Under the pieces are notes generated by a model. That model saw only the letters and a list, made by a program, of their open reading frames with translations, did not search any database and was not told the DNA's origin. A program made the position numbers and the translations under genes. A stretch of DNA of 62,595 nucleotides, the filler included, from Pirum gemmata (lineage: Eukaryota): assembly GCA_002812295.1 (NCBI GenBank). It is 23 parts of 23 records of this genome, joined end to end, with 100 filler letters (N's around TTAATTAATTAA, not from the genome) between each part and the next. Parts side by side here need not be neighbours in the genome. Positions count along the whole stretch, not along the records: positions 13,594 to 18,126 come from PDIN01006686.1; 22 more parts are not named here. One strand, given 5' to 3'. Positions 1,291-24,805 of the stretch are shown here, in pieces; within the stretch, counting starts at the first letter, position 1, and the number at the start of each line of letters is the position of its first letter.

Positions 1291-2262
1291 TGAGNTGATA
1301 TTATTATTATTAGCATTATTAATATTATTAATTAGCTATTAACTTATAGACTAATAATTATTTTAACAGAAGCAAAGTATGCATAGCAGTAGCTGCACAA
1401 TAATTACACACAAGTTACACGAACTACTACCTGGTATATTATCAATAATATTATATATTATAGGCTATTTATAGCAAAAGTAACATAGATGAGAAGATGT
1501 TAATTAAAGTGTTTTCAATTAGAGGCTGACAAAGGTCATTCTCCTGCTCAGTTTTTTGTTGGATATTATATTAATATATGAGCATATAATATTATGTATA
1601 ATTATATTGATAGTATTATACTTATATAGTCTACTTTACCAGTCTTTAGCTCTGGTAGTTACTAGTTAGTCTACTACTAAAATATACTATGATAGTAAGT
1701 ACTGGTATGATGGTATCCTACTAACTAGTAGACCCCATCTAAATGTATATGATATAAGTATAATATAATATAGAGTCATTATAATAATTATAGACCTATA
1801 CGGTATATAATTTGAATACCGGTATAGTCTTTTAATTAACTAGCTAGCTATCATAGTTAGACAGCTAGCTAGTCTTTGTGGACTCTTACTGGTATAGCTC
1901 ATGGTATGCATAGCTAGCTAGGTATGCATATTCTAGCTAGACCTCTAGCTATCGATAGCTAGAGCCCTGAAGCTACTACCTAGCTAGCTACTGGCTATGA
2001 TAGCTAGAAGAACTTACCTCTAACTAAGCTAGCTAGCTACTACTTCCAGGCAGCTACTATGACTAGGAAGTAGACCTACTAGTAGCTAGCTAGCTAGTAG
2101 TAGAGTACTCGATAGACTAGCTAGCTAGCTGCTAGACTGGTTAGCTACCTAGACCTACTAGCTAGACTCCTACTAGCTAGCTACTAGTTAGAGTTAGCTA
2201 CTAGCTAGTATCATAGTCTAGCTAGCTAGATTCGTACTACTAGCTAGCTAGCTAGCTAGTAT

Positions 2263-2442
2263 CGCTTTTCATTTATTTTGTTACTCCAAATATTTATTTG
2301 GAGGTTTATAATATTTAAATCGTCATTTTTAAATCAATAAATACATAATAAAATATACCAAAATATAGAAAATGGACTTATATTGTATTTATTTGGTACT
2401 ATTTATTGTATATTTCATGATGACAAAACAACTGAAAAGCAC
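2263..2442 (+). mobile_element. MITE family A (~180 bp, TIR GTGCTTTTCA...TGAAAAGCAC)
   Basis: Related copies in both orientations at 2659-2840, ~7140-7289, 7546-7726, 20331-20510, 20725-20906, ~20990-21135, 22342-22523, 22762-22961, 24347-24536, ~24550-24705 and 38857-39037, partial at ~30170-30240 and ~59570-59616. Confidence 0.85.
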
Positions 2443-3223
2443 TATAGTTAGGCCTGGGACTCGCCTAGCTAGCTAGTCTACTCTAGTAGACTAGCTAGTA
2501 TACTCGTAGACCCCCAAGTCGTCCCCCCCCAACAGGCTAGACGGCCTAGCTCTAGCTATGATAGCTACTAGTCTAGTAGTAGACTAGTCTAGCTAGACCC
2601 CGTCTAGCTAGTAGTACTGAGACCTAAGTATTGAGACAGTTAGCCTAGCTAGTCTAGCAAATTATAAAATAAATAGTACCAAATTAATACAATATAAATC
2701 CATTTCATTTAATTTGGTATTTTTTATTATATATTTATTTATTTAAAAGTATCAATTTAAATATTATAAACAACCAAATAAATCTTTGGGAGTGACAAAA
2801 TAAATCTCAAAGCAAAATACATATGATAAATGAAAAGCACAATATCAAACCTCTGATATCGATACCGTGTAGTCTAGCTAGTCTAGTTGCTGAAGGCTGT
2901 TGCTGAAGGCTTTGACAGTGCGCTCCGTCCGACTCAGTGCAAGAGTACTGGCTGGTAGACCCGTCTAGGTTGGTCTTTTTATTTTTTATTTTTATGATAA
3001 TATAATATTATATAAATATGATAATATAATAATAATATTCATATTGGTATAATTATTGTTCAATATTTATATTACCAGTATTATAGCCTTTTTTTATTTT
3101 TTATTTATTTTTTATTTTTATTTATTTTTGTTTTTGAAAGAAAATGTAAAATAGTAATTACCTAAAACAAACACTAACGCCAAGAAATACCGAATCAAAC
3201 GAGCAAAAACCTTTTCAGCAATA

Positions 3224-3744: not shown

Positions 3745-4005
3745 TGTTGTTGTTGTTGTTGTTGTTGTTGTTAACATTAGCTACGATTATTATCACAATT
3801 TCTACTAGTCTAAATTGAATGTAGATTAAGTAGGGTTAGGACAGAGTTAGAATTAGGCTTAGGGTAGTTTGGGTAGGGATTATGGTTATATGAATATGAT
3901 AGTATAAAATATATTTAGACTATATCAAGGACTTCAAAAAAAAAAAAAAATTAATAAAAAAATAAATATAATTTGAATAAATCATAATACATTTTTTTTA
4001 ATAGC

Positions 4006-4217
4006 CAAGCCGGATAAAAATTGTAACATCCACCATATGAGCTCAAAAATCCAAAAAATTACAAAATGCTCCAATATTGATAAAAGTACTATCAATTTTG
4101 GAGAAATAATCTAACTAAAAAAACTCTATTATATACCAATGGCCTTTTTTAAAAATAATTTGGCTTGTTTTTAGAAAAGAAGTCTAAAAAAAATGATTTC
4201 TACAGTTTTATGGCTGT
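4006..4217 (+). mobile_element. MITE family B (~220-235 bp, TIR CAAGCCGGATAAAA...TTTTATCCGGCTTG)
   Basis: Shared core GAGCTCAAAAATCCAAAAAA...AGAAAAGAAGTCTAAAA. Other copies at ~6741-6976, 9426-9610 (reverse), 32067-32283, ~57010-57115 (reverse, partial) and ~59240-59421 (reverse). Confidence 0.8.
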
Positions 4218-7200
4218 TAAAAAATAAAATAATTAGTGTCTATAAATGAAATTTTTTTATTTTTTTACATATCATATTAATAAAAATATTATTATGAGAG
4301 GTCGTAGTTATCCAGAGAAAACTCGAATATTAAATTTTATAAATAATTTTATCAAACCATGATTATCATTATCATAACCCTAACTCTAACCCTAACCCCT
4401 AGCTAGTAGCTAGATCCGATCCCTAAGCCTAAGCCTAGTCCTAAGCCTAACAACTTACCCCTAACCTTAGCCATTTCCATAACCATATATAGCTCTAAAA
4501 ATTCGAACTACTTTCAAAATTCAAACTTCGATCACGTCTAACCATTATTGCAAATCGGTGTATTATAGGCTTTTGTTACGCACCATATTTGTGGTTTTTG
4601 GCTATTATTGTTATAAATAATAACGTTTTTGGTAATATATTTACTTAAAATGTATATATCTATAAACCGCATTTTATTCAACTTGGCGCACTTCAGATCA
4701 TTTTAGATTTTATTTTAGCAATAGTTGAAATATGTTTCTCTTTCTTCTCAATTTGGGCCTATTATATAAACATTTTAAGCTTTCAGATTGCAATCTAAAC
4801 CATTAACTTGGAAGTCTGGAAAAAGGGTAAAAGTGACGTCATTAGTTATTTAATAAGAAGACTTACCATAATTTTGATATATTATTATATATTATAATAA
4901 TGATTATAATAGTATTATAATTAAATATTATAATTATTATTGTCATAATTGTCATATTAATATAGCTATTAGTATATAAATTTGTTAATATATATGATAT
5001 ATAAAATTATAAAAAATTCTAATAATTGGAGTTTTGGAGTTTTGGAGTTTTGGAATCAAGCAAAAACAGATTTCCTTATTATTATATTCCTTTAGTTAAA
5101 ATACCAAAACGATGTCTAATAAATTTTAATTCTTTTTCTACGTTATTCGAATTCATATAAAATAAATTACAATAACTTAATTAAGTATTTCCTGATAAAT
5201 AATAATTATTAATAAAGGTCAGCGTGCGTTAGGGTTATAATTGGCTATAGGGGTTGGTGTTAGGGTTAGGGTTAGACTAGGGTTAGGGTCAGGGTTATAA
5301 TTAGGGTAAGGGTTAGGGTTATAAGGGTCAGGGTTAGGGTTAGGGTAGGGTTAAATAATGAAGCTCAAGCCTCAACATTCGATCGAATTTTTAAAATAAT
5401 TATTTTAACAAAAACATTAACAAAACATATGCATATGCATGAATTTTTAGTTTTGACACTGTTTTAACTTTGCTAGTTTAACTTTGTCAGATTTATTTAT
5501 AAATTATTTAATTAATAATAAGAAACCCCCAACAACGCGAAATTTGCGGAAGTGTCGAAAATTGGATTCTTTCGGAATGATGACGAAAACTATGACGACA
5601 ATTCTACGTTTAACGTCAAAAGTTATTAATGCGTCATAAACATTAAGTACGTCATACACTGCGTCACTTAAGTGTTGTTGTTGTTGTAGTATTTATAATA
5701 ATATTTAATATAATTATTGTTGTTATTGTAGTTTTCGTCACTTCTGTCACAATTTGGGCTGTGTTTGATTTAATAATTAATTATAATATTATATAATAAT
5801 AATTATATTAATATATCATATTAATAAATTTCAACCTGTAATATTCCAATATAAATCTGAATATGACAATGGTTATTTAAGAAGTCATGATGGCATTTAA
5901 AACACGGATTTATTGTTGCGTAAGATTTAGAAGAGATTCATCCAAAATATGATATGATCGATATCATATAATATATATATTATAATATAGGGCTACTACT
6001 ATTGATACTCCTACTACTACTGCCAGTATTGCTGCTGCTGCTAATAATAATAATAATATTAATAATATTATTATAATATTAATATTAATATTAATATTAA
6101 TAATNNNNNNNNNNNNNNNNNNNNNNNNNNNNNNNNNNNNNNNNNNNNTTAATTAATTAANNNNNNNNNNNNNNNNNNNNNNNNNNNNNNNNNNNNNNNN
6201 NNNNTATTATTATTATTATTATATATAATCATTATCATTATCATTATTGTTAATTAACGTTATTGTTATTATTATTATAAAATGAATAAAAAATAAAACA
6301 AAACTTTTAAAATTAAAATTAAAATCAAAAATATTATTATTGATTATTGATTATTGATTATTGATTATTGATTATTGATTATTGATTACTATAATTTATT
6401 ATTATCTGATATTAGTTTTCTCTAGCTAGCTAGCTAGTAGCTAGCTAGGTATAGACCAAAAAAAAATTTTTTACGTCCATAGACTTTTTTTTTTTAAAAA
6501 AAAAAAATTAATAGATTTCAATTGAATTTTCAGTTTTCAAACATGAGTAATGTAATAGGCATTTAATAGATTTGAAATTTTCGAACATATTACATTTACT
6601 AATTTTTTTTAAAAAAAGGTGACTTTTAATTAGTAAAAAAAAGTAGGATGTAGCTAGAGCCAGTAGCTACTATGAATGACAATGTAGTAGACTATATATA
6701 GTATGATATATTTTACAAATAAATAAAAGGCTTTTTGACTGGCCGATAAAAATGGCGACATCTGCCATATGAGCTCAAAAAATCAAAAAATCTCAAAAAA
6801 ATCCAATGTTAAAAAAAGTACTACCAAATATTAAGAAATCTTCTGACTAAGAAAACTCTATTATGAGCCAATTGCTAATTTTTAAAAAAGTTTTGGCTAG
6901 TTATTATTTTTTAAAAAGATTTTTAGAAAAGAAGTCTAAAAAAAATGATTTCTGTCATACAGTTTTATCCGGCTTGACCAAAAAAAAAATAAAAAAAATA
7001 ATAATAAATAATAGCCTTATTAGTCAATGATTAAAAAAACTCTACCTTTTTGTTATTGTAAAGGTTTTGACTGGAAGATTTGAGTTTAAAAGTTTTTATT
7101 TGTTTACCAATGGAAGGCTATTATAGGAGTCCAATAGGTTTATTTGAAGGGTTATAATCTTTTAATTGATATTTTTAAAATCAATACATAGATAATAAAA

Positions 7201-9155
7201 TATACCAGAATATATCAAATGGATTTATATTGTATTTATTTGGTACTATTTATTGTATATTTTATGATGACAAAACAACTGGAAAGCACTATACGAAGTT
7301 GATCAAAGACCCTAGCTAGGGTCTATCATGGGGTTAGCTGGGGACCTGGGGTCTCGAGTCCTCGACTCCCAGCTCGTCTCTAGCTAGAGTCTAGCTAGCA
7401 AAATAGCTGGGGACCCTGGGGACCCTGGGGTTATTACTCTCTCTGGTCAGTCTCTGGGTTTGTAGTATCGATACTTTAGTGCACTAAGTCTTTGTATATA
7501 TAGGATGTTCTATCATAAACAATTAGGATGTATAGACGTATAGTAGTGCTTTTCATTTATTTTGGCACTCAGAATATTTATTTGGTTGGTTATAATATTT
7601 CAATTGACATTCTTAATTGAATAAATAGATAATAAAATATACCAAATTAAATGATATGGATTTATATTGTATTAATTTAGTTCTTTTTATTGTACATTTT
7701 ATGATGACAAAACAACTAAAAAGCACAATAGTAGATTTCCTATGTCATAGCTAGTCTAGCTAGCTTTCGTACTTTCATAGTGTAGACTTGTAAGATTTAG
7801 GATTGACTATCAATGTAGAGCTTTACCCTAATTCTGTAACGCTAACTCTAACACTAACCCTAACTCATCCTAACTTTAACCTTTAACCCTACCACTACCC
7901 CTACATAAGTAACCCAAACCCCAGCCCTAACCCTAACCCAAACATTAACCATAACCCTAACCCTAACCATAACTACTAGACCCTAACCATAACAATAACC
8001 CTAACCCTAACCCTAACCCTAACCCTAATTATATAACCCTAACCCAAATACTAACCCAGATCCTAACCCTAACCCTAACCCTAACCCTAACACTAGAATA
8101 CATGCAATACTCATGGAATAGTATGTAATGACATACTTAAAAATATAATTAATTAATATTATGTTAAAAAATTATTTAGTTTTTGTACTGGTCAAAATTG
8201 TCATAAAAACATATTATTGCTATGGCAATCATTATTTATAATGTAATTAGCTAGAAAATATTTTGTTATTATTGTTGCTGTTCTTTTTAAATTCTTTTCA
8301 TTCCAAAACAAACAAAAACAAAAACAAAAAAAATGTTTTTTGTTGTATAATATTATAAAGAAAATATATAAGAATATATTTTTTTCGAAATTTTGATTTT
8401 TATTTTTGTTTTTTTTTGTGTGTTTTTGTTTTTTTTGTGTGTTTTTGTTTTTTCTTGGTATTGTTCTTTGACGTTTCAATAATTATAGCACTAATCATAA
8501 CAATAACAATAACAATAACAATAAGAACAGCCAAAACAATAAAAATAAGTAATAATTAATTACTCAATAATAATAATAATAATAACGTTAACAATNNNNN
8601 NNNNNNNNNNNNNNNNNNNNNNNNNNNNNNNNNNNNNNNTTAATTAATTAANNNNNNNNNNNNNNNNNNNNNNNNNNNNNNNNNNNNNNNNNNNNACCCT
8701 AACCCTAACCCTGACCCTAACCCTAACCCCAAACCCTACTAACCCTAACCCCTAACCCTAACCCTTACCCCTAACCCTAACGCTAACCCTAACGCTAACC
8801 CTAACCCTAATTAATAACCCTGGCCAAGCACTTTTAGGCTTTTGGTCACTTTTTTTTTTAGGCTTTTGGGCACCTTTTTGAAAACATAAAAAGCCAAGCA
8901 CTTTTAGGCTTTTGGTCACTTTTTTTTTTTGAAAAGCCTACGATAAAAAGTCAGGACTATTTGGTATCTTCAAAAAAACTGATTCCTAACTTCAGGTTTA
9001 AAAATTATATAAAAATAACTAATGAAAAATAAAACGGTACCTAAATAATTTTTTTGCTGACATTTAAAATTAACTTGGTAGCTTTTTAGTTATTTAGATC
9101 TGACAGCTAGCTAGGATCTGACGGGGTTAGTCTCGGGGTTAGTCTACTAGGGGAA

Positions 9156-9348
9156 TAGGGGTGAGATGACGTCATTTTATTATTACCGAATAGCTTCCGG
9201 AACTTTATGTTAATAAGATTACTTTATTTGGTAACTACTATAATTAAATTTACTATTTTAAGCTATTTAACTGCTATATTTAAGGTTGGCTCGATAAGGC
9301 TCGATAAGTATCTGTTCGAAAAAAGTTCCAGCAGATATCTCACCCCTA
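9156..9348 (+). mobile_element. MITE family C (TIR TAGGGGTGAGAT, hAT-like termini)
   Basis: Perfect 12-bp TIR; inverted homologous copy at 38549-38776; related end at ~39967. Confidence 0.75.
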
Positions 9349-9629
9349 CTACTAGCTAGCGTCTACCACATAGTAGTCTATAAATAGAACATCAACTAGT
9401 TTTTTTTTTTTTTTTTTTTAACAGCCAAGCCGGTTAAAACTGTAGATTTTTAGGCTTCTTTTCTAAAAATCTTTAATCTTAACTATCCAAATTAATTTTA
9501 TAAACTAGCTATTGGTTCATAATAGTTTTTTTAGGTTGACTATTTCTCAAATATTTGGTAGTACTTACATTAATATTGGATCATTTTGAGATTTTAGATT
9601 TTTGAGCTCCCGCTTGGTATTCATAGACT

Positions 9630-9711
<82 letters not shown>

Positions 9712-9846
9712 ATTAAAAACAACAACACTCAACAAGTACTCAACACCAGAACACTGAGGTTCAACAATAAATAACAACACTACCAAGTGGTAACAAGAAC
9801 AGCAACAAATTTAATCAAACTAAATTTAAAATTTATTAAAAATCAA

Positions 9847-10982
9847 ATGACTAACACTCTTACTGGCATTATGGATGAAGTTAATACTTTTCAATATTCT
9901 GTTTCTTCCATTAAAGACGCAAACGAAAAAACCGTAAATGAAATTGTTGACATAGTAAATGATGGTACTTGAATAACTCTGACCTTAACCCTAACCCTAA
10001 CCCTAACCCTAACCCTAACCCTAACCCGAACCAGGACCCGAACCCGAACCCGAACCCGAACCCCTAACCCTAACCCTAACCCTAATCCTAACCTTGACTC
10101 TAACTTTAACTCTAACTCTAACTCTTAACTCTAACTCTAACTTTAACTCTAACCCTGGCTTTAACCTTAACCCTAACCCTATAAAAGCTTATGCTTGGGG
10201 TGAAGAAGGCATGTGGGTTGATGGGCATCCTAGGACTAATGCTAGTGAGATCAAAAGTTTCGCAGAAAAATCTTTATTAATCCTTGTAAGAAATAAAGAA
10301 CAACAAGTTATTGCTTCAATGTATTTAGATCCTTTTGATCAAAGTAGAGGTAGCATTTGACCATTTCTATTGTTATTGTTGTTTTTGTTGGTTTTGTTGT
10401 TTTAGTTGTTCTTGTTCTTGTTCTTGTTCTTGTTCTTGTTTTGGGATTGTTCTTGTCCTTTCTGTTTCTTGTTGTTCTTGTTGTTCTTGTTGTTCTTGTT
10501 GTTCTTGTTGTTCTTGTAATTCTTGTTGTTCTTGTTGTTGCTATATTATTATTTTAGCGTTATTATAAACGTGATCTTTGTGACAATATCATAAACTGTA
10601 TACCATAAACATAAAATATAAACAGAATTATAGCCATAGACATAACAATAACAAAAACAATAACCATAACCATAACAATAACCAATAACAATAACCATAA
10701 CCATAATCATAACAATAACCAATAACAATAACCATATTATTATCATTATCATTGTTGTTATAGTCATAGTTGTTATTATCTATGATTTCGTTCTTATTGT
10801 TGATGTTACTGTTGTGATTGTTGTTATTATTGTTTTTTCGGGCTATTATTTTTATAAGGAGGTGTCTCTAAGAAATTAAGTTGTACATTTATTATTGATC
10901 TTTATATTAGAAGCCGGTCTACCCCGAACTGGAAGTTTGGGAATGTTAGCTGTTCATAAATTATATACACGTAAAGGAGTTT
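9847..10982 (+). CDS. GNAT-family N-acetyltransferase, exons 9847-9964, 10188-10349, 10911-10982 (3' end lost in gap)
   Basis: All three junctions are phase 1 GT-AG. Spliced protein ...EIVDIVNDAYAWGEEGMW...RTNASEI...GSLGMLAVHKLYTRKGV carries a GNAT motif A-like MLAV...RKG. Confidence 0.85.
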
Positions 10983-11126
10983 GTAAGTTATTATTTACTA
11001 TTATTATCATTATTATTATCATTATTNNNNNNNNNNNNNNNNNNNNNNNNNNNNNNNNNNNNNNNNNNNNTTAATTAATTAANNNNNNNNNNNNNNNNNN
11101 NNNNNNNNNNNNNNNNNNNNNNNNNN

Positions 11127-11188: not shown

Positions 11189-11250
11189 ATAATTGAAACT
11201 GTTTTTGGGGACACCCTAAAATTTTAGAACTTACACCCAAATTTCGGCAG

Positions 11251-11323
11251 TATCTTGTGGCCCAATGGCTAAGGCGTATGACTACGAATCATGAGATTGT
11301 GGGTTCGAGTCCCATCAAGATCT
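11251..11323 (+). tRNA. tRNA-Arg(ACG) with a 1:72 mismatch
   Basis: Cloverleaf: acceptor (T)ATCTTG/CAAGAT(C), D arm GCCC..AGGC, anticodon arm TATGA-CTACGAA-TCATG, T arm GTGGG-TTCGAGT-CCCAT. Confidence 0.88.
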
Positions 11324-11589
11324 TTGTAAAAAATTGGATTGAAAATTGTAGTGGAAGTTTAAAAGTGTAGTAGTGGAGTAGTTTTTTTTTTTTGAAAAAA
11401 GGGGGAAATTCAAATACTTGTTCCTTCATTTTGCTTAATGATATTAATAATATCGAAAAAGGAGAAACATATGTATTTTTGTGTTTTATGAATTTATACT
11501 TTTTATTTACAACATTTTAGTCTTTTATAAATTTATGCGCTCCTTTTCATACACACATAGGTTTTTACACTCAGCTTATAGGTTACTAT

Positions 11590-13493: not shown

Positions 13494-13756
13494 NNNNNNN
13501 NNNNNNNNNNNNNNNNNNNNNNNNNNNNNNNNNNNNNTTAATTAATTAANNNNNNNNNNNNNNNNNNNNNNNNNNNNNNNNNNNNNNNNNNNNCTGTTGC
13601 TGCTGTTGCTGTTGTTGCTGTGGTGGTGTTGTTGCTGTTGGTGCTGGTGCGAGTGCTGATAGTGTGGGTTCTGATGGTGTTTGTGATGATGGTGTGGGGG
13701 TTAATGGTGGTGGTGGTGTGGATGCTGATGCAGGTGTGTTGCGTTGTTTTTGTAAC

Positions 13757-13792
<36 letters not shown>

Positions 13793-13979
13793 CGTTTGTT
13801 GATGTTGGTCATCGTGACTTCGTTGTAGTTGTGTGTTCTTTCTGTGTTGCGTTGTGAGCGTCGACCTCCCCTAACCCGTGTATAGAAATAGTGGTAGGTA
13901 TGGGTTGTTGTAATATGGATTGTTATAGTGATGTCGTGTATGTAGTGGTTGTGTTTGTGGTTTGTGGTGGTGTTGTTGC

Positions 13980-14037
<58 letters not shown>

Positions 14038-14998
14038 GCTGTGGTTGGTTTTGTTGTTGTTGTGGTTGCAGGTATATTTGTGTCATGCGTTGCCAATGTT
14101 GTATGTGTTGTTGATGTAGTTGTTGCAATTGCTTTTGTAATGTGTTTCTGCCGTTCTTTGTGTATGTCATCGGGTAGAGTGTTGGAAATATGACTACCGA
14201 TCTTGATCTTATCATTTGTTTTGTCTTGAGGTTGAGTAGTAGATATTCGTCGTTAGTGGAGTCTAGTGGTGTGCCCATTATGATGCATTCGATTGCTCGA
14301 TCATTTGACTTAGGTTTTTTGTCACGAGGATCATGAGCCAATGCGCTGCAGCCTAATGGTCTATATGTATCAATTCTTCTGTGACGTAAGCCCCATTTTT
14401 CGTTACTAATTATGTTATACTTTGTTGTTGGTATGTTTTTCAGAATAAAGATTGCGTCGTCCATTGCGAACGACCATAATGTTTTGGGTAAACCTGAGTT
14501 CTGTAGTAGACATCTGGTTATGTCACCAATTGTTTAACCTGTTCGCTCGCATAGCATCATTTCTGGAGTATTATTGGGTACCGTTCGTAGCTCTACTCTG
14601 ATGTTGCGGAGTCCTGATCTCATGGTGTTGTTATATAATTATGTGCCTTGGTCAACTATTACTTGCTGTATGGGTACTGGTGCTTGGGTTGGTGATGCGT
14701 ATGTTGGTTATGACTTTGTTGTGATCGGTTAGGAAGTTGATTATGTTGTTTGTTATGGTTTTTTTGTTCGTGTGATACAGTTTACATTTTTTTCTGGTGA
14801 GGGAGTCGATGATGAATGATATGTATTTATATTTTTGCGGTTGTGATACTATATCCCAGGTGTATGTATCAATATATACTACTTGTCCTCGGGATTGCGT
14901 CGTCCATTGCGAACGGCCATGATGTTTTCGGTAAACCTGAGTTCTGTAGTAGAGTCTACATCTGGTTATGTAACCAATTGTTTGACCTGTTCGCTCGC

Positions 14999-15385
14999 TA
15001 ATAGATTATCTCATTTCTCATTTTTACGTATGTTGGAAAATGGATCACTGAGTGGGAATCGAACCCACGACCAACTCTCTCCGGGAGTTTGCTCTTGACC
15101 ACTGAGCTATCAGGTAATCCATTTTCCCACGTATTTTCGTTTTTTCTTGTAGCATATTCTATTACAACACCATATCCATCTAGGCCTCTTCTCTAGGCCT
15201 AGCTGGTTCAGGGAAGTGTCGGGGACAAGGTGGGCAGAGTCATGGTCCTGATAACGTAATAGATTATCTCATTTCTCATTTTTACGTGTGTTGGAAAATG
15301 GATCACTGAGCGGGAATCGAACCCACGACCAACTCTCTCCAAGAGGGGTTTTTTTTTTTTAAAAAAACTAATCAGTATTCTATTA
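14999..15385 (-). mobile_element. TRIM (miniature non-autonomous LTR element) with a tRNA-like cassette in its LTRs
   Basis: TSD CTCGC at 14994-14998 and 15386-15390; empty site at 14546-14550; LTR-like units 14999-15164 and 15257-15385 each bounded by TAATAGA...TCTATTA; 92-bp internal region starting CGTTATCAGGACCATG on the minus strand. Confidence 0.85.
15043..15121 (-). ncRNA. tRNA-like cloverleaf with Pol III A and B boxes embedded in the TRIM LTR
   Basis: Minus strand GGATTACCTGA-TAGCTCAGTGGTCAAGAGC-A-AACTC-CCGGAGA-GAGTT-GGTC-GTGGGTTCGATTCCCAC-TCAGTGATCC; C instead of U33, bulged and extended acceptor stem. Confidence 0.75.
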
Positions 15386-18300
15386 CTCGCATAGCATCAT
15401 TTCGGGAGTATTCTTGGGTACCGTTCGTAGCTCTACTCTGATGTTGCGGAGTCCTTATCTCATGGTGTTATATAATTCTGTGCCTTGGTCAACTATTACT
15501 TGCTCTTGTAGGTTGGTGATGCGTATGTTGGTTATGACTTTGTTGTGATCGGTTAGGAAGTTGGTTATGTTGTTTGTTATGGTTTTTTTGTTCGTGTGAT
15601 ACAGTTTATATTTTTTTCTGGTGCGGGAGTGGATGATGATTGATATGTATTTGTATTTTTGCGGTTGTAATACTATATCCCAGGTGTATGTATCAGTATA
15701 TACTACTTGTCCTCGGTGGTGTTGTTGTCGTGTGTGGCATACTGATTTGACTGGTTTCTTCTTCATTTTTGTTTGTGCACANGGAAAAGTGAGGTAATGT
15801 TTTGTTTTTTTTTTCTTTTTTTTTTTAGCCATTGTTTTTTAATTTTACTATTATATTACAGTACTAGATAAATATCATACTACACATATGCTTTGTGCTA
15901 GTATTTGTATTAGTGTCGTATTAGCATTAGCATTAGTATAGTCCTAGTCCGTGTTTTTTTTTTTCTTTTCTTTTGCCATTGTTTTTTAATTTTACTATTA
16001 TATTATAGTACTAGATATATATCATACTACACATATGCTTTGTGCTAGTATTTGTATTATTGTCAGTATTAGTATTAGCATTGGTATACTAGTCCAGTTT
16101 TTACTATTAGAACTATTAGACATTATTATTTTATTGTCGATGATGATAACAAGGTATATTTAATGGCCATTTATTTTATTAATGGATTTCGGCATTTGTT
16201 TTTCTATTAGCTTTGGGTCTGTGCTAGTTCTAACTAATAAGTTCTTATTCAAAACACCTACTTATTTATATTTACATCAAGTTATTGCAGTTACTTTTTT
16301 GTATACTGGCGTTATTACTAATCTAACTATTTTCTTTTTTCTTTTTACCCTAACCCTAACCCTAACCCTATTTTTCTTCGTCTACTAACTGAAGTCATTT
16401 AAAAATCGATTCTTAGTAAAAATGCATTAACTAGTATTGATGACTTATTCATTAAATCAACCTCAAAAGCTAGTAATAAAAAAAATTTTAAAAACATTAT
16501 TTATGCTAATCTAGCAGTCATACTCCAACTAGTTAACCCCAACTAATTTATATTTTTATATTTTTAAAGATCTGTATTTGTGATAAGCTTTTTGGGAAAC
16601 TGGGTCGTCAATCTCCCTTTATCTTACTATTTTGGCTTTAAGCTTAAGCAGGGTGTACATGCTATTTGGTACTTTTTACTTTTAAATATTAACTATTAAC
16701 AAAAAAGAAAATAAAATAAAATATTAAGAAAATTTCACTTAACTTTTGTAATATGTTATTTTTATTAACTGGTAATTCTGTTAAAATTCGAATTCTCTTA
16801 TCCCAAGTTTTTGACACGTTTTATAATGAAAGATATAATTTTACAGTTTATTCTGCTGCCCTTCTTAGCAAAGTTGCTCTTCTTTTTTTTTACCATCATA
16901 GTTTCCTTTCCTTATCAAATGTGTAACAATTATCAAAAATTCACAGGTATGCTGTATGCGCTATGGAAGCTTTTAAATTGATATGTTTCTTGATGATTTT
17001 GTTCTTATCTGATTTTGAAAAGATCTCCGAAAAAATTCATAAGCAAATGACAAATTCTAATGAATCTGAAGCATCCCAAGATGAAAATGATTTTTATATT
17101 AACAGAGTATACCAACAACACTCAGTGGACTACTAAAATTTGATATCAATTTACTTGACTTGATCATAATTGCGTTTTGTTTTCTGAGTTTTCTAAGTTT
17201 GTAATTCATGTACATGACTGTCGGGAATGAAAACCAGACAATAATGTTCTGAGGTTTATCCAGCTACTTTGATAAGCGATACACTTTGGTGAAGGAATCC
17301 CTCACTCTATCTACCTTACCCGCTCTATCTGTTGAGTAACATGACGTAATACCAGCATGTATAACCCTTGGTGAAGAAATATCTCACTCTATTTGTTGAA
17401 CAATGAGTAATACCAATATATGTAGTTATTTTAAAAAAAATTAACATTATATGATCCAAGGCCGATTTTGACTTATATTTGGGTGCATATTAAAAGTGGG
17501 TGGGTGCGGGTTTTCAAGAAGTGGTGTTTTTGGTACGTTCGAAAGCTTCTACGAGACTACAGACGTTTTAACTCGACGTAGTAATATTTTGATTAATAAT
17601 AGAGTTATTATATAACACCAAATTATATTAAAAAGCCACAATAGCATTATCTGTAATAGTAAAAAGTTGACATGAAATAGTCTACTAAAAAGTTGTAATT
17701 AAGAAATAAAATTATAACGTACTAATTAATATTTTATGAAAACTCTACTTCTTGCCTTTTACATGCATGACTTTTACGTGACCTTTTTATCATTTTTTTG
17801 TTCATCGCGAAAAAAAATGAACAATATTGGCCAATGCAGAGTAATATTTTTTTTAAAAAAAAAAATATAGGATAAGAGAGACATGAAATACGTCATTATT
17901 TGGGTTTATTTTTTTGATCGTTACTGAAAACGTTTACGCTGAAAATGTTTGGTGTTATATAATATTATAAAGCCACAAGAGTATTAACTGTAATGGTAAA
18001 AAGTTGACATGAAATAGTCTATTAAAAAGTTGTAATTAAGAAATAAAATTATAACTAATTAACATTTTATGAAAACTCTACTTTTTTTTTTTTGCCTTTT
18101 ACATGACTTTTACGTGACTTTTTTTTNNNNNNNNNNNNNNNNNNNNNNNNNNNNNNNNNNNNNNNNNNNNTTAATTAATTAANNNNNNNNNNNNNNNNNN
18201 NNNNNNNNNNNNNNNNNNNNNNNNNNTTTTTTGCTGTTTCTTGTTTTTTGTTTTTTGCCAAAACTTTCTGCCTATTTATATGTTTCTGTAGCTAGTAGCT

Positions 18301-20319: not shown

Positions 20320-21504
20320 TTATCGATATCGTGCTTTTCATTTAGTTTGTCACTCTTAATATTTATTTGGAGGGTTATAATCCTTAAATTGGCATTTTTA
20401 AATCAATACATAGATAATAAAATATACAAATTAAATCAAATGGATTTAAATTGTAGTAATTTGGTATTATTTATTTTATATTTTATGATGACAAAACAAC
20501 TGAAAAGCACTCTAGGAAAAGCACTACTCTAGACCCCCCGGTCTATACTAAAAAATAAAATTAATAAACCAAAGTCTTTTATAGCCTATCAGAGGTATTC
20601 GAACGTAATTCAAAGTNNNNNNNNNNNNNNNNNNNNNNNNNNNNNNNNNNNNNNNNNNNNTTAATTAATTAANNNNNNNNNNNNNNNNNNNNNNNNNNNN
20701 NNNNNNNNNNNNNNNNTTTATAACGTGCTTTTCATTTATTTTGTCACTCTGAATATTTATTTGGAGGGTTATAATCTTTAAATTGACATTTTTAAATCGA
20801 TACATAGATAATAAAATATACCAAATTAAATTAAATGGATTTATATTGTATTAATTTGGTGCTATATATTGTTTATTTTATGATGACAAAAACAACTGAA
20901 AAGCACTAGACTATAGACTATAATGATAGACTAGCTAGAGTCACTAGACCGGGTCTATATCTATACCATATTATCATAAATATCGTGCATAAAATATACA
21001 ATAAAGATTACCAAATTAATACAATATAAATCCATTTCATTTAATTTGGTATTATTTTATTATAAATTTATTCATTTAACAATGTCAATTAAAAAACTAT
21101 AACCAACCAAATAAATATTCGGAATGACAAAATAAATTATAGTTGTTGGAACTGTTGTTGGTTAAAATTATTTCTTGTAGTCTAAGTCAGCTGGAAGCCA
21201 CACGCTACGTAGCCTACGTAGACTAACGCCAATTTCCGGTCAAGTACAGCTTCAAATACCCCCTACCTACCTACCCCTCGACGTTAATTTCTGGTCAAAT
21301 AGACTAGGTACTTAGAGACTACCGATATCAGTATCATATCGATATCCAATGATAAAACAAGAATTTACAGCTTTTGAATGGTTGAAATTGACTTGAAATT
21401 GGCTCTGATATCAACATTCCAATCTATCTTAATTAAAATAAAATAAAAAAAAATAAAATAAAGTAATTTCTTTTTATGGAAAAAAGATACTGACTACTAC
21501 TTAG

Positions 21505-21818: not shown

Positions 21819-23206
21819 TTTCTACTACTACGACTACTACTACTACTACTACTATTTCTACTACTACGACTACTACTACTACTACTAATACTAATACTAC
21901 TACTACTACTACTAACCCTAACTAATACTATTACTGCTACTACTACTACTATTAATAGCAATACCTAGTAGTACCTACAAGCAGTGTTATTAAAAACTAG
22001 ACACGCCTTCGTACGGGTTAGAGAGTTAGAAGTGTTAGAGTTAGGGTAGTTAGGGTTGGGGTTGGGAGACTGGGTTAGGGTTGGAGATTATATTTTAGGT
22101 GATTTGAGATGATTAGAAAAAAAAAACATGTATCTGATAAACTGCCGCCAGTGCACTGTACACTATGATTTATGTTATAAAACTTTTGCTTTTTTAAATA
22201 TTAGAAATTATCTGAATTTGATTTCAAAAAAAAAAAAAAAACTTTTGTGATTGCTTATTGTCAAATCAAAATAAAATAAATTACATTATTATTACTGATA
22301 ATTATTATAGGGATATTTATATAATAATATTATATAGACTAGTGTTTTCCAGTTGTTTTGGCATCATAGAATATACAATAAAAAGTACGAAATTAATATA
22401 ATATAAATCAATTTTATTTAATTTGGTATATTTTATTAGCTATTTATTTATTTAAAAAATGTCAATTAAAAGGTTATAATCTACCAAATAAATATTCAGA
22501 ATGACAAAATAAATGAAAAGCACAATAACATATTGTCATAAAGTTGTCTTTTGTGATAATATTTACATATTTGCTTACTTCATTATCTTTGCCACCTGTA
22601 TGAGAAATAGAAATGTTAGAATTTATTTCTTTAGCTAATAAACATATATCACTATTATTACCAGTATTAATACCTTCTATTATTAATAATTTACTAGACT
22701 TTTTTCGCTGCTATTAATTAAAACATATAGCAAGACAATCTTTTTCATCCAAAACTACATCGTGCTTTTAAAAATTTCAGTTGTTTTGTCTTCATAAAAT
22801 ATACAAAAAAAGAGTGCCAAAGTAATACAATATATAAATCCATTTCATTTAATTAATTTCGTATTACATATTTATTTATTTAAAAGTATCAATTTAAATA
22901 TTATTATATTATAAACAACCAAATAAATATTTGGAGTGACAAAATCATAAATGAAAAGCACACTATATAATATCACATTTACATGATAAAACTATTCAAA
23001 AAATTGTAAATGACCCAGAAAATAGAAGTATTTTTATATATTATATTATATTAATATATAATTATATATTATGTATGTATTAAGTATGATAACGATAAGG
23101 ATATTANNNNNNNNNNNNNNNNNNNNNNNNNNNNNNNNNNNNNNNNNNNNTTAATTAATTAANNNNNNNNNNNNNNNNNNNNNNNNNNNNNNNNNNNNNN
23201 NNNNNN

Positions 23207-23900: not shown

Positions 23901-24805
23901 ATATTATATCGAAAAAAGAGAACTATATGTATTTTTGTGTTTTATGAATTTATACTTTTTATTTACAACATTTTAGACTTTTATAAATTTATGCTCTTCT
24001 TTTCATACACACATAAGCTTTACACTCTGCTTATATACCTTTGTGAAAACTAACTATTACATAATCCACAATTTTCTGGAACATTCTAAATAATCATTTA
24101 CAAATACAAATTATTATTACATAATCAATTTGTATAATACCAAACAATAAAATCATACACTTAAACTTAATTCAATCATAGCTAAACAAATAAGCTCGAC
24201 ATAAAATAATAGTTTCGAGAATAAATGTATATCCAATCGACCAATCATATTGCCACGCGGTCAGCCCATTGAGATTTCACCACAGGCAGACCATGAAGGC
24301 TCGGATTCGAACTAGTCTACATACATTTATATTATAATATATTATAGTGCTTTTCAGTTGTTTTGTCATTATAAAGTATAAAATAAATAGTTCCAAATCA
24401 ATGTAATATAAATCCATTTAATCTAATTCGGTATATTTTGTTATCTGTATATTGATTTAAAATTGTCGATTTAAAGATTGTAACCCTCCAAATAAATCAA
24501 ATAAATATTCGGAGTGATAAAATAAATGAAATGCACGATAATATAATTTTAAGTCGTTTTGTCATCATAAAATATACAATAAAGAGTACCAAATTTTATT
24601 TAATTTGATATATTTTATAATCTAATTATTAATTTAAAAATATTAATATATTAAATATTATATAATATTTTAATTATAATGTTTGTGGAGTGACAAAATA
24701 AATGATTATCATTATTATTATCATTATTATTATCACTAATATATTATTATTATCATTATTACTATTATTATTATTATCATTATTATTATCATTATTATTA
24801 TCATT

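What the first reader, a model, noticed from the sequence alone, without database searches (positions are those of the whole stretch)
14999..15385. Miniature LTR retroelement whose LTRs carry a tRNA-like Pol III cassette, with TA...TA ends and a half-tRNA primer site
Seen: a 387-bp insertion in a copia integrase is flanked by a 5-bp duplication CTCGC, and the paralogous empty site is present at 14546-14550. It has two direct-repeat units (166 and 129 bp), each ending in TAATAGA/TCTATTA, around a 92-bp non-coding core. The intact unit holds a full cloverleaf with A box (TAGCTCAGTGG) and B box (GGTTCGATTCC) in the element's sense direction; the other has lost the cloverleaf's 5' half. Established: Cassandra TRIMs carry 5S RNA in their LTRs, and small-RNA-bearing LTRs are described for Helenus/Ajax elements. 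Inference: this is a Pol III-driven TRIM of that kind, but this combination of termini and primer site in a protist-like genome may be an undescribed family.
Basis: partly seen in the sequence, partly recalled or inferred. Interest (0 to 1): 0.85.

Follow-up and report, generated by a model that had tools for sequence, protein, structure and literature searches.

The report
tRNA-carrying mini-retrotransposon in animal relative
A 387-base gene-less jumping element with a tRNA-like piece in its end repeats sits inside another transposon of what is most likely the single-celled animal relative Pirum gemmata; it is a new family of a kind described in 2024 (Helenus), likely copied by Copia-type elements from an RNA that the tRNA-like piece would drive.

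Summary
Observation confirmed. Read on the minus strand: 5' LTR (129 bp), 92-bp core, 3' LTR (166 bp), TA...TA ends, 5-bp duplication CTCGC. The empty site also appears in 3 of 4 laid runs. The family is abundant, and other flanks join at the same ends. Most copies have the primer site CGTTATCAGCAC, which pairs with the anticodon arm of tRNA-Ile(IAU); the window copy has one mismatch there. Contigs of other runs show an intact 5' LTR, so the deletion is not a family trait. The assembly is most likely Pirum gemmata, an ichthyosporean. This is a Helenus-type TRIM (Kojima 2024). TA...TA ends, half-tRNA primer sites and 5-bp duplications already occur together in published rust-fungus Helenus. New are the family, the host lineage, and a long LTR hairpin that pairs with the T4 terminator. 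Pol III transcription, a second duplication, the polypurine tract and the helper Copia are not shown. Earlier notes of this scan report Helenus-type elements on other DNA (a clubroot protist, a fungus).

The parts
14994..14998 (.). Target-site duplication CTCGC, low-coordinate copy
   Evidence: joint 14993->15386 with 5 letters fitting either side in X2, X3, X7
14999..15164 (-). 3' LTR, 166 bp, intact, TAATAGA...TCTATTA; folds as one long hairpin with the cloverleaf as its loop
   Evidence: (z -3.84, 0 of 200 shuffles)
15041..15116 (-). tRNA-like cassette; Ser(GGA) by anticodon but with a short variable loop and a CC-GGA-GA loop, so probably not a working tRNA (inference)
15099..15109 (-). A box TAGCTCAGTGG
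15055..15065 (-). B box GGTTCGATTCC
15037..15040 (-). T4 run after the cassette, candidate weak Pol III terminator (twin at 15298-15295 in the 5' LTR)
15110..15133 (-). Upstream arm that pairs with 15052-15023, including the T4 run (duplex -26.5 kcal/mol)
   Evidence: 0 of 2000 shuffles of the first 48 nt fold as well
15031..15046 (-). 16-mer GATCCATTTTCCAACA, identical to the LTR end of Selaginella Helenus-1_SMo; here 32 nt inside the LTR end
   Evidence: compared by eye and by text search
15165..15256 (-). 92-bp non-coding core with an 8-bp hairpin at 15202-15180
   Evidence: crossed whole by X1 record 3 and X4 record 1
15245..15256 (-). Primer-binding site abutting the 5' LTR; window CGTTATCAGGAC, majority CGTTATCAGCAC; complementary to the anticodon arm of tRNA-Ile(IAU)
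15165..15180 (-). G-rich candidate plus-strand primer region GATGGATATGG-TGTTG; not a clean polypurine tract
15257..15385 (-). 5' LTR, 129 bp; head of a second LTR subtype; lacks the A box and the 5' half of the cloverleaf in this assembled copy
15386..15390 (.). Target-site duplication CTCGC, high-coordinate copy
14546..14550 (.). Empty site in the paralogous Copia segment
13874..15716 (-). Host: frameshifted Copia-type integrase region with a 437-bp segment present twice; the insertion falls at MLCE|R, where the aligned solved integrase has AER

Best explanation
It is a small non-coding LTR retrotransposon (TRIM) of the Helenus type, with a tRNA-like cassette in its LTRs, that is likely transcribed by RNA polymerase III from the A and B boxes of the 5' LTR and likely reverse-transcribed and integrated by a Copia-type helper, which would use a half molecule of tRNA-Ile(IAU) as primer. 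Shown: LTR-core-LTR layout, TA...TA ends, a 5-bp duplication with empty site, many variant copies, other flanks at the same ends, and a primer site complementary to the tRNA-Ile anticodon arm in the register of known half-tRNA sites. Inferred steps: (1) Pol III starts a few bases before the cloverleaf of an intact 5' LTR, reads through the first T4 in part of its rounds, and ends at or beyond the T4 of the 3' LTR, giving an RNA of about 340 nt with the cassette repeated at both ends. (2) A helper particle packages this RNA; the tRNA half primes at the LTR edge, with C opposite inosine 34. (3) A G-rich stretch before the 3' LTR primes the second strand. (4) The integrase accepts TA-3' ends and makes a 5-bp duplication. 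The window copy is probably dead: no A box in the 5' LTR and a mismatch in the primer site. Odds: TRIM 0.93; Copia helper with half-Ile primer 0.85; Pol III as the working promoter 0.75.
For: Empty site with one CTCGC in 3 of 4 runs. Contigs laid on 14850-15550: 2566 (X1), 68, 114, 6; summed depth in X1 is 738,000-1,252,000 over 15066-15329 against 62,000-274,000 over the Copia flanks (not a copy number). Other flanks at the ends: X7 at 14998 (1 contig) and 15385 (2 contigs), X2 at 15386 (1), X1 at 15164 (6, agreement 0.5); 24 of 84 loose-end rows were shown. Primer-site majority: 15247 C>G in all covering depth of X1 (70 contigs), X2 (4) and X3 (18); the same letters in X6. In 90 viral loci, 28 of 53 ARAGORN calls held the matching 12-mer and all 26 distinct ones were tRNA-Ile(aat). 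Half-tRNA-Ile priming with inosine is described for Bianca Copia (PMC6317226, passages) and for fungal Helenus (PMC10886601). Core joined to an intact LTR in X5 and X6; none of the four runs covers 15321-15399. Size lies within the Helenus range of 311-1263 bp.
Against: No second insertion with both flanks, so only one duplication is shown. No helper found: no relative among the 17 pattern hits in the viral and metagenome collections, no second primer site in the window. The polypurine tract is atypical. The two LTRs of this copy have different heads, which a fresh insertion should not have; this needs recombination or an assembly mosaic. The host's own tRNA-Ile was not seen; the match is to viral-contig tRNAs found with a pattern built from the primer site. 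The lack of sense-strand T runs is not significant (19% of window stretches of that length have at most one). Contigs of repeats are graph paths and cannot phase the two LTRs across their 89-nt shared part.
Confidence: 0.85

Rival explanations
1. It is a TRIM, but the tRNA-like cassette is a passenger; the copied RNA comes from Pol II or from read-through out of neighbouring elements.
For: No transcript start was mapped. A T4 lies right behind the B box in the 5' LTR and would cut many Pol III transcripts short. PMC10886601 says Pol III function is untested for Helenus.
Against: Both boxes are intact, correctly spaced and on the primer-site strand, and none of the variants listed falls in either box. 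Only 48 nt of A-rich LTR lie upstream of the cassette.
Confidence: 0.15
2. The two units are independent foldback (MITE-like) DNA elements with a captured tRNA, and the core is an unrelated spacer.
For: Each intact unit folds back on itself end to end (z -3.84) with 7-bp terminal inverted repeats. Units with other flanks exist. The window holds another short interspersed repeat family.
Against: One duplication brackets the whole 387 bp. The core is about as deep as the units and is joined to them in the same order in X1, X4, X5 and X6. It begins with a 12-nt tRNA-Ile primer site exactly at the unit edge. Lone units are expected as solo LTRs.
Confidence: 0.04
3. The insertion is real but its interior in this assembly is a mosaic of family members, so the unequal LTRs and the deletion are artefacts. 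This is compatible with the best explanation.
For: The deletion starts at a poly-A run. Contigs of X3 and X7 continue the same head into a longer run rather than into the window's next letters. PMC5560861 describes this species' assembly as fragmented by repeats (passages). The two heads belong to two abundant subtypes.
Against: Recombined, truncated and tandem TRIM copies are common in real genomes (PMC13570524, passages). The loose-end and piece tables were cut, so a contig with the deletion may exist unseen.
Confidence: 0.4
4. The element primes itself: the 5' end of its RNA folds back on the primer site, as in Tf1-type elements.
For: Cassette positions 4-11 pair with primer-site positions 2-9 (8 bp, one G-U; -9.7 kcal/mol; 25 of 2000 LTR shuffles reach it).
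Against: Noticed after the fact. Four of the eight bases are fixed by the A box. The pairing stops one base short of the LTR edge, whereas tRNA-Ile pairs over 12 nt up to the edge. PMC10886601 found no such complementarity in Helenus.
Confidence: 0.04

Closest known systems
Fungal Helenus TRIMs (TRIMp3), Kojima 2024, PMC10886601 (read: main text parts 1-4 of 6; supplement parts 1, 2, 9, 10, 11 of 11, with all of Table S1, plus two text searches)
   Same: tRNA-like A/B-box cassette in the LTR followed by a T run, short core, primer site on a tRNA anticodon arm (Ile-AAT among them), 5-bp duplication, Copia-type signals. TA...TA ends occur in Helenus-11B_PTrit and Helenus-17_PHor. By eye, the A-box and B-box arms are near-identical to those of Helenus-8_PSt and Helenus-15_PHor (20 of 21 nt in the B-box arm), which may only reflect a shared tRNA type.
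   Different: Host lineage: Table S1 lists only Fungi, Metazoa and Selaginella. The primer-site motif and the upstream arm motif were not found in Data S1 by text search (line breaks can hide matches). No G-run polypurine tract next to the LTR. A 24-nt arm pairs with the terminator region; I saw none in the few LTRs checked by eye.
Helenus-1_SMo of Selaginella moellendorffii (same paper)
   Same: Similar size (120-bp LTR, 85-bp core), 5-bp duplication, and an identical 16-mer after the cassette; its first 10 letters occur once in Data S1.
   Different: TG...CA ends, with the 16-mer forming the LTR end; primer site for the 3' end of a whole tRNA; a clear purine tract.
Animal Helenus (same paper)
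   Same: tRNA-like cassette in the LTRs of a TRIM.
   Different: Whole-tRNA primers, 4-bp duplications and Gypsy helpers. This element, from a closer relative of animals, has the fungal (Copia) signals instead.
Bianca lineage of Ty1/copia (PMC6317226, passages and one supplement row)
   Same: Half-tRNA-Ile primer site read with inosine (92% of 260 elements) and 5-bp duplication (96%).
   Different: Autonomous plant elements of about 6 kb; no tRNA cassette in the LTR is mentioned in what I read.
Cassandra and Ajax TRIMs (PMC10886601; PMC7215508, passages)
   Same: Non-autonomous LTR elements with an internal Pol III promoter in the LTR.
   Different: They carry 5S rRNA sequence; here Rfam finds tRNA only.
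Non-TGCA Copia elements such as AtRE1 (bioRxiv 10.1101/137141, passages; its supplement not seen)
   Same: 5'-TA...TA-3' termini; non-canonical ends are mostly Copia (89%) and go with short LTRs.
   Different: A plant Copia element; no tRNA cassette is mentioned in the passages read.

Membership tests
Helenus (TRIM with tRNA-derived LTR sequence) | Two LTRs as direct repeats around a short internal part | tested here: met
   89 nt at 96% plus a shared 10-nt head; core joined to LTRs on both sides in X1 and X4 and to an intact LTR in X5 and X6. In the window copy the 5' LTR is deleted and has another head.
Helenus (TRIM with tRNA-derived LTR sequence) | Shorter than 1 kb, no coding capacity for RT or integrase | tested here: met
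   387 bp; stop-to-stop frames lying within it are 62-64 codons
Helenus (TRIM with tRNA-derived LTR sequence) | tRNA-like sequence in the LTR with conserved A and B boxes | tested here: met
Helenus (TRIM with tRNA-derived LTR sequence) | Primer-binding site next to the 5' LTR, complementary to a tRNA | tested here: met
   Majority site pairs over 12 nt with the anticodon arm of tRNA-Ile(aat) genes from viral contigs (11 Watson-Crick pairs plus C opposite the edited position); the host's own tRNA was not seen
Helenus (TRIM with tRNA-derived LTR sequence) | Polypurine tract before the 3' LTR | tested here: inconclusive
   G-rich GATGGATATGG-TGTTG abuts the LTR; a 10-nt purine run lies 20 nt upstream inside a hairpin
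Helenus (TRIM with tRNA-derived LTR sequence) | 4-6 bp target-site duplication | tested here: met
   5 bp at one insertion, with the empty site in 3 of 4 runs; no second insertion with both flanks
TRIMp3 | Transcription by RNA polymerase III from the LTR | not testable with these tools
   Only contigs were available; they cannot show starts, ends or strand
Copia-dependent (fungal-type) Helenus | An autonomous Copia in the same genome with the same primer site | tested here: inconclusive
   No genome is held; no second site in the window; collection scans gave no relative
Cassandra / Ajax | 5S rRNA-derived sequence in the LTR | tested here: not met
   Rfam scan of the whole window at gathering score: tRNA only
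MITE / TIR element | Each unit moves alone and has its own duplication | tested here: not met
   In the window one duplication brackets both units and the core; lone units elsewhere could not be checked for duplications

The most novel reading that the evidence does not exclude
The LTR hairpin is a position-sensing terminator. RNA started in the 5' LTR lacks most of the upstream arm and reads through the weak T4, while in the 3' LTR the fully transcribed arm pairs up to and into the T4 and releases Pol III. One LTR sequence would thus give read-through first and termination second, a problem every Pol III-driven LTR element must solve. In addition, TGTTG at the core's end and CAACA 32 nt inside the LTR would be fossils of older TG...CA ends, shared with Selaginella Helenus, meaning that the family shifted its termini to TA...TA and that Copia-type Helenus is one old lineage across fungi, a plant and a unicellular holozoan.
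Probability: 0.18. Interest if true: 0.6.

Novelty: new member of a known kind. Interest (0 to 1): 0.33.

Why it matters
It extends Helenus to a unicellular holozoan lineage not listed in the 2024 survey, and with fungal-type (Copia) rather than animal-type (Gypsy) signals, which bears on whether these elements arose once or many times. An abundant tRNA-like repeat will inflate tRNA gene counts in this genome. The species grows in axenic culture (PMC5560861, passage), so the untested claim that Helenus is transcribed by Pol III, and the question of how one LTR both lets Pol III through and stops it, could be tested here.

Tried and rejected
No whole genome is held. BLAST of the element against the window found only the two LTRs plus low-complexity hits. 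Junction pattern LTR end + primer site: 1 hit in viral contigs and 16 in metagenome contigs, none with similarity to the element beyond about 21-23 nt around the pattern (one gapped 43-nt match at 79%), so chance hits. LTR pattern: 0 hits in viral contigs and 0 in prokaryote genomes. Integrase relative P0122 in viral contigs: none. No RNA holder listed; X5 and X7 are only guessed to be RNA, so nothing is claimed on expression. X7 has no cover of 15186-15329, which is not used. The X5 contig (organism B, 4 differences in 183 laid letters) could be a relative or carry-over; not decided. Strand bias of T runs: not significant. A direct repeat TACGT flanking the cassette (15133-15129, 15030-15026) looked like the duplication of a nested SINE or solo LTR, but it follows from the palindromic hairpin arms, so it is not counted. 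The position-sensing idea is weakened: a start only 4 nt before the cloverleaf already gives a stem next to the T4 (-26.0 against -30.1 kcal/mol with the longer arm). The lactonase-like protein gave one distant hit and no taxon. Paper searches for non-canonical termini with joined terms gave 0. No alignment with published Helenus consensus sequences was computed; those comparisons are by eye or text search. Repbase and Dfam could not be searched.

Full report
Context. The window is a chain of short AT-rich contigs, mostly about 2.4 kb, joined by N spacers. The element lies on the piece 13594-18126. A protein from another piece (36297-37490) is 100% identical over 99% of its length to a EukProt entry labelled Pgem. 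Pgem stands for Pirum gemmata, Ichthyosporea, in a supplement of PMC5560861 (lineage). The host assignment rests on that one protein on another contig of the same assembly. No whole genome is held.

Observation. On the minus strand the element reads: 5' LTR 15385-15257 (129 bp), core 15256-15165 (92 bp), 3' LTR 15164-14999 (166 bp), between two CTCGC copies; the paralogous site at 14546-14550 has one. Chance identity at that spacing is 0.39%. The intact LTR holds a cloverleaf (ARAGORN Ser(gga); Rfam tRNA 43.2 bits) with A box 15109-15099 and B box 15065-15055. The short variable loop and the CC-GGA-GA loop do not fit a serine tRNA (established tRNA anatomy, recalled), so it is probably a promoter relic. 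The flanks encode a frameshifted integrase with an SH3 domain downstream. A 402-aa relative at 76% identity shows gag_pre-integrase, weak rve and SH3, and its best solved match is an integrase, 7z0h (E 1.3e-4; that this is Ty1 integrase is recalled). The insertion falls at MLCE|R, aligned with AER of that integrase; reading this E as catalytic is recalled.

Is it a family? Nineteen runs were listed, 16 holding some of the stretch, in 11 studies; I laid 8. In one search (X1, X2, X3, X7) 2566, 68, 114 and 6 contigs were laid. The empty site (14993->15386, five letters fitting either side) appears in X2, X3 and X7. Other flanks join at the same termini: X7 at 14998 and at 15385, X2 at 15386, X1 at 15164 (24 of 84 rows shown). 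No record gave both flanks of one insertion. Summed depth in X1 is several times higher over the element than over the multi-copy Copia flanks; the tool warns that this is no copy number. A second LTR head, the one in the window's 5' LTR, is common but usually has 4 letters fewer at 15361 (141,502 of 155,362 depth in X1), which leaves T3 instead of T7 on the sense strand. In one search (X4, X5, X6, X8; one contig each) X4 crosses the whole core, X5 and X6 join the primer-site end of the core to an intact LTR, and none covers 15321-15399. A typical copy would therefore be 166+92+166 = 424 bp. The deletion and the unequal heads are private to this copy or come from assembly. The junction of the host's tandem duplication (14892/14893) is not followed in X2, X3 or X7.

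Primer site. The window has CGTTATCAGGAC at the LTR edge. All covering depth in X1, X2 and X3 has CGTTATCAGCAC, and so does X6. A pattern made from its reverse complement with the AAT anticodon gave 90 viral loci; 28 of 53 ARAGORN calls held the 12-mer, and all 26 distinct ones were tRNA-Ile(aat), with the match ending on the 3' side of the anticodon stem. The one non-matching base is C opposite A34, which is edited to inosine; the same type of site is described for Bianca Copia (PMC6317226, passages) and tRNA-Ile-AAT anticodon-loop sites for fungal Helenus. The host tRNA was not seen. The 3' end of the core is G-rich but not a clean polypurine tract.

LTR structure. The intact LTR folds as one hairpin with the cloverleaf at its tip (-44.7 kcal/mol, z -3.84). 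The 24 nt before the A box pair with the 30 nt after the T arm, including the T4 run (-26.5 kcal/mol); with the cassette fixed, 0 of 2000 shuffles of the first 48 nt fold as well. bioRxiv 10.1101/2021.08.27.457903 (passages) reports that T4 is nearly non-functional in vitro and that an adjacent hairpin makes it a moderate Pol III terminator. This suggests read-through in the 5' LTR and release in the 3' LTR. Against it, a start only 4 nt before the cloverleaf already forms most of the stem, and I have no covariation evidence. An 8-bp match between the cassette's 5' end and the primer site (25 of 2000 shuffles) is probably incidental.

Comparison. Kojima 2024 (PMC10886601; and supplement) defines Helenus as TRIMs with tRNA-derived sequence in the LTRs. 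Fungal families use anticodon-loop primer sites, make 5-bp duplications and are linked to Copia; animal families use whole-tRNA primers, 4-bp duplications and Gypsy. This element meets every defining feature that could be tested except the polypurine tract (inconclusive). TA...TA ends are not new: two published Helenus LTRs have them, one with a half-tRNA site and 5-bp duplication, and so does the Copia element AtRE1. Table S1 lists no host outside Fungi, Metazoa and Selaginella. Paper searches listed nothing on TRIMs or Helenus in ichthyosporeans (listings and abstract starts only); Repbase and Dfam could not be searched, and supplement parts 3-8 were only text-searched. A 16-mer after the cassette is identical to the LTR end of Selaginella Helenus-1_SMo, and the core ends in TGTTG. 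These may be relics of TG...CA ends, but the match was noticed after the fact and includes the T run and CAACA that many such LTRs share.

Earlier notes of this scan report Helenus-type elements in a clubroot protist and a Basidiobolus-like fungus (unchecked AI notes), so the kind is turning up in several lineages. The two notes for this genome concern other pieces.

Verdict. Real, mobile in the past and abundant; a new family of Helenus-type TRIM in a new host lineage. Pol III transcription, the helper and the function of the hairpin are inferred or open. Interest 0.33.

Noticed in passing
window 2257-2448, 7139-7293, 7541-7732, 20326-20511, 20720-20907, 22340-22521, 24343-24534, 38856-39042 and others: An interspersed AT-rich repeat of about 185 bp, about ten copies at 71-95% identity, twice as head-to-head pairs (2271-2805, 20734-21137); MITE-like or SINE-like.
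   Followed up: no
window 25725-26088: A 364-bp foldback (87% self-complementary) directly before a Copia RT region.
   Followed up: no
window 26125-27970: Second, frameshifted Copia piece (RVT_2 E 1.4e-26) followed by a purine tract AGGGGGAGAG at about 27938-27947; its LTR start does not look like TA. No link to the TRIM shown.
   Followed up: partly
window 36297-37502 (-): UDP-galactopyranose mutase; apart from the self hit, the named homologues are mostly bacterial at 40-53% identity, with one gastropod entry. Possible horizontal transfer.
   Followed up: partly
window 46939-48339 (-): 467-codon lactonase-like beta-propeller frame with a single distant hit at 26% identity.
   Followed up: partly
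window 30609-31919 (-): 437-codon frame that looks like a hAT-type transposase by eye (recalled motifs); no Pfam match at E 0.001.
   Followed up: partly
window 11250-11324 (+): Ordinary tRNA-Arg(ACG), Rfam 52.4 bits.
   Followed up: no
window 15234-15305 in run X3: Summed contig depth is 108,000-171,000 here against 4,000-11,000 over 15042-15185. Unexplained; contigs cannot show levels.
   Followed up: no
window 14450-14892 and 14893-15716: Tandem duplication of a 437-bp Copia integrase segment whose junction is not followed by contigs of three runs; possibly an assembly join.
   Followed up: partly
runs X4, X6 (marine metagenomes) and X8 (urban metagenome): Single contigs of 177-284 nt, 90-99% alike, show the element in environmental data at depth 2-7.
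   Followed up: partly
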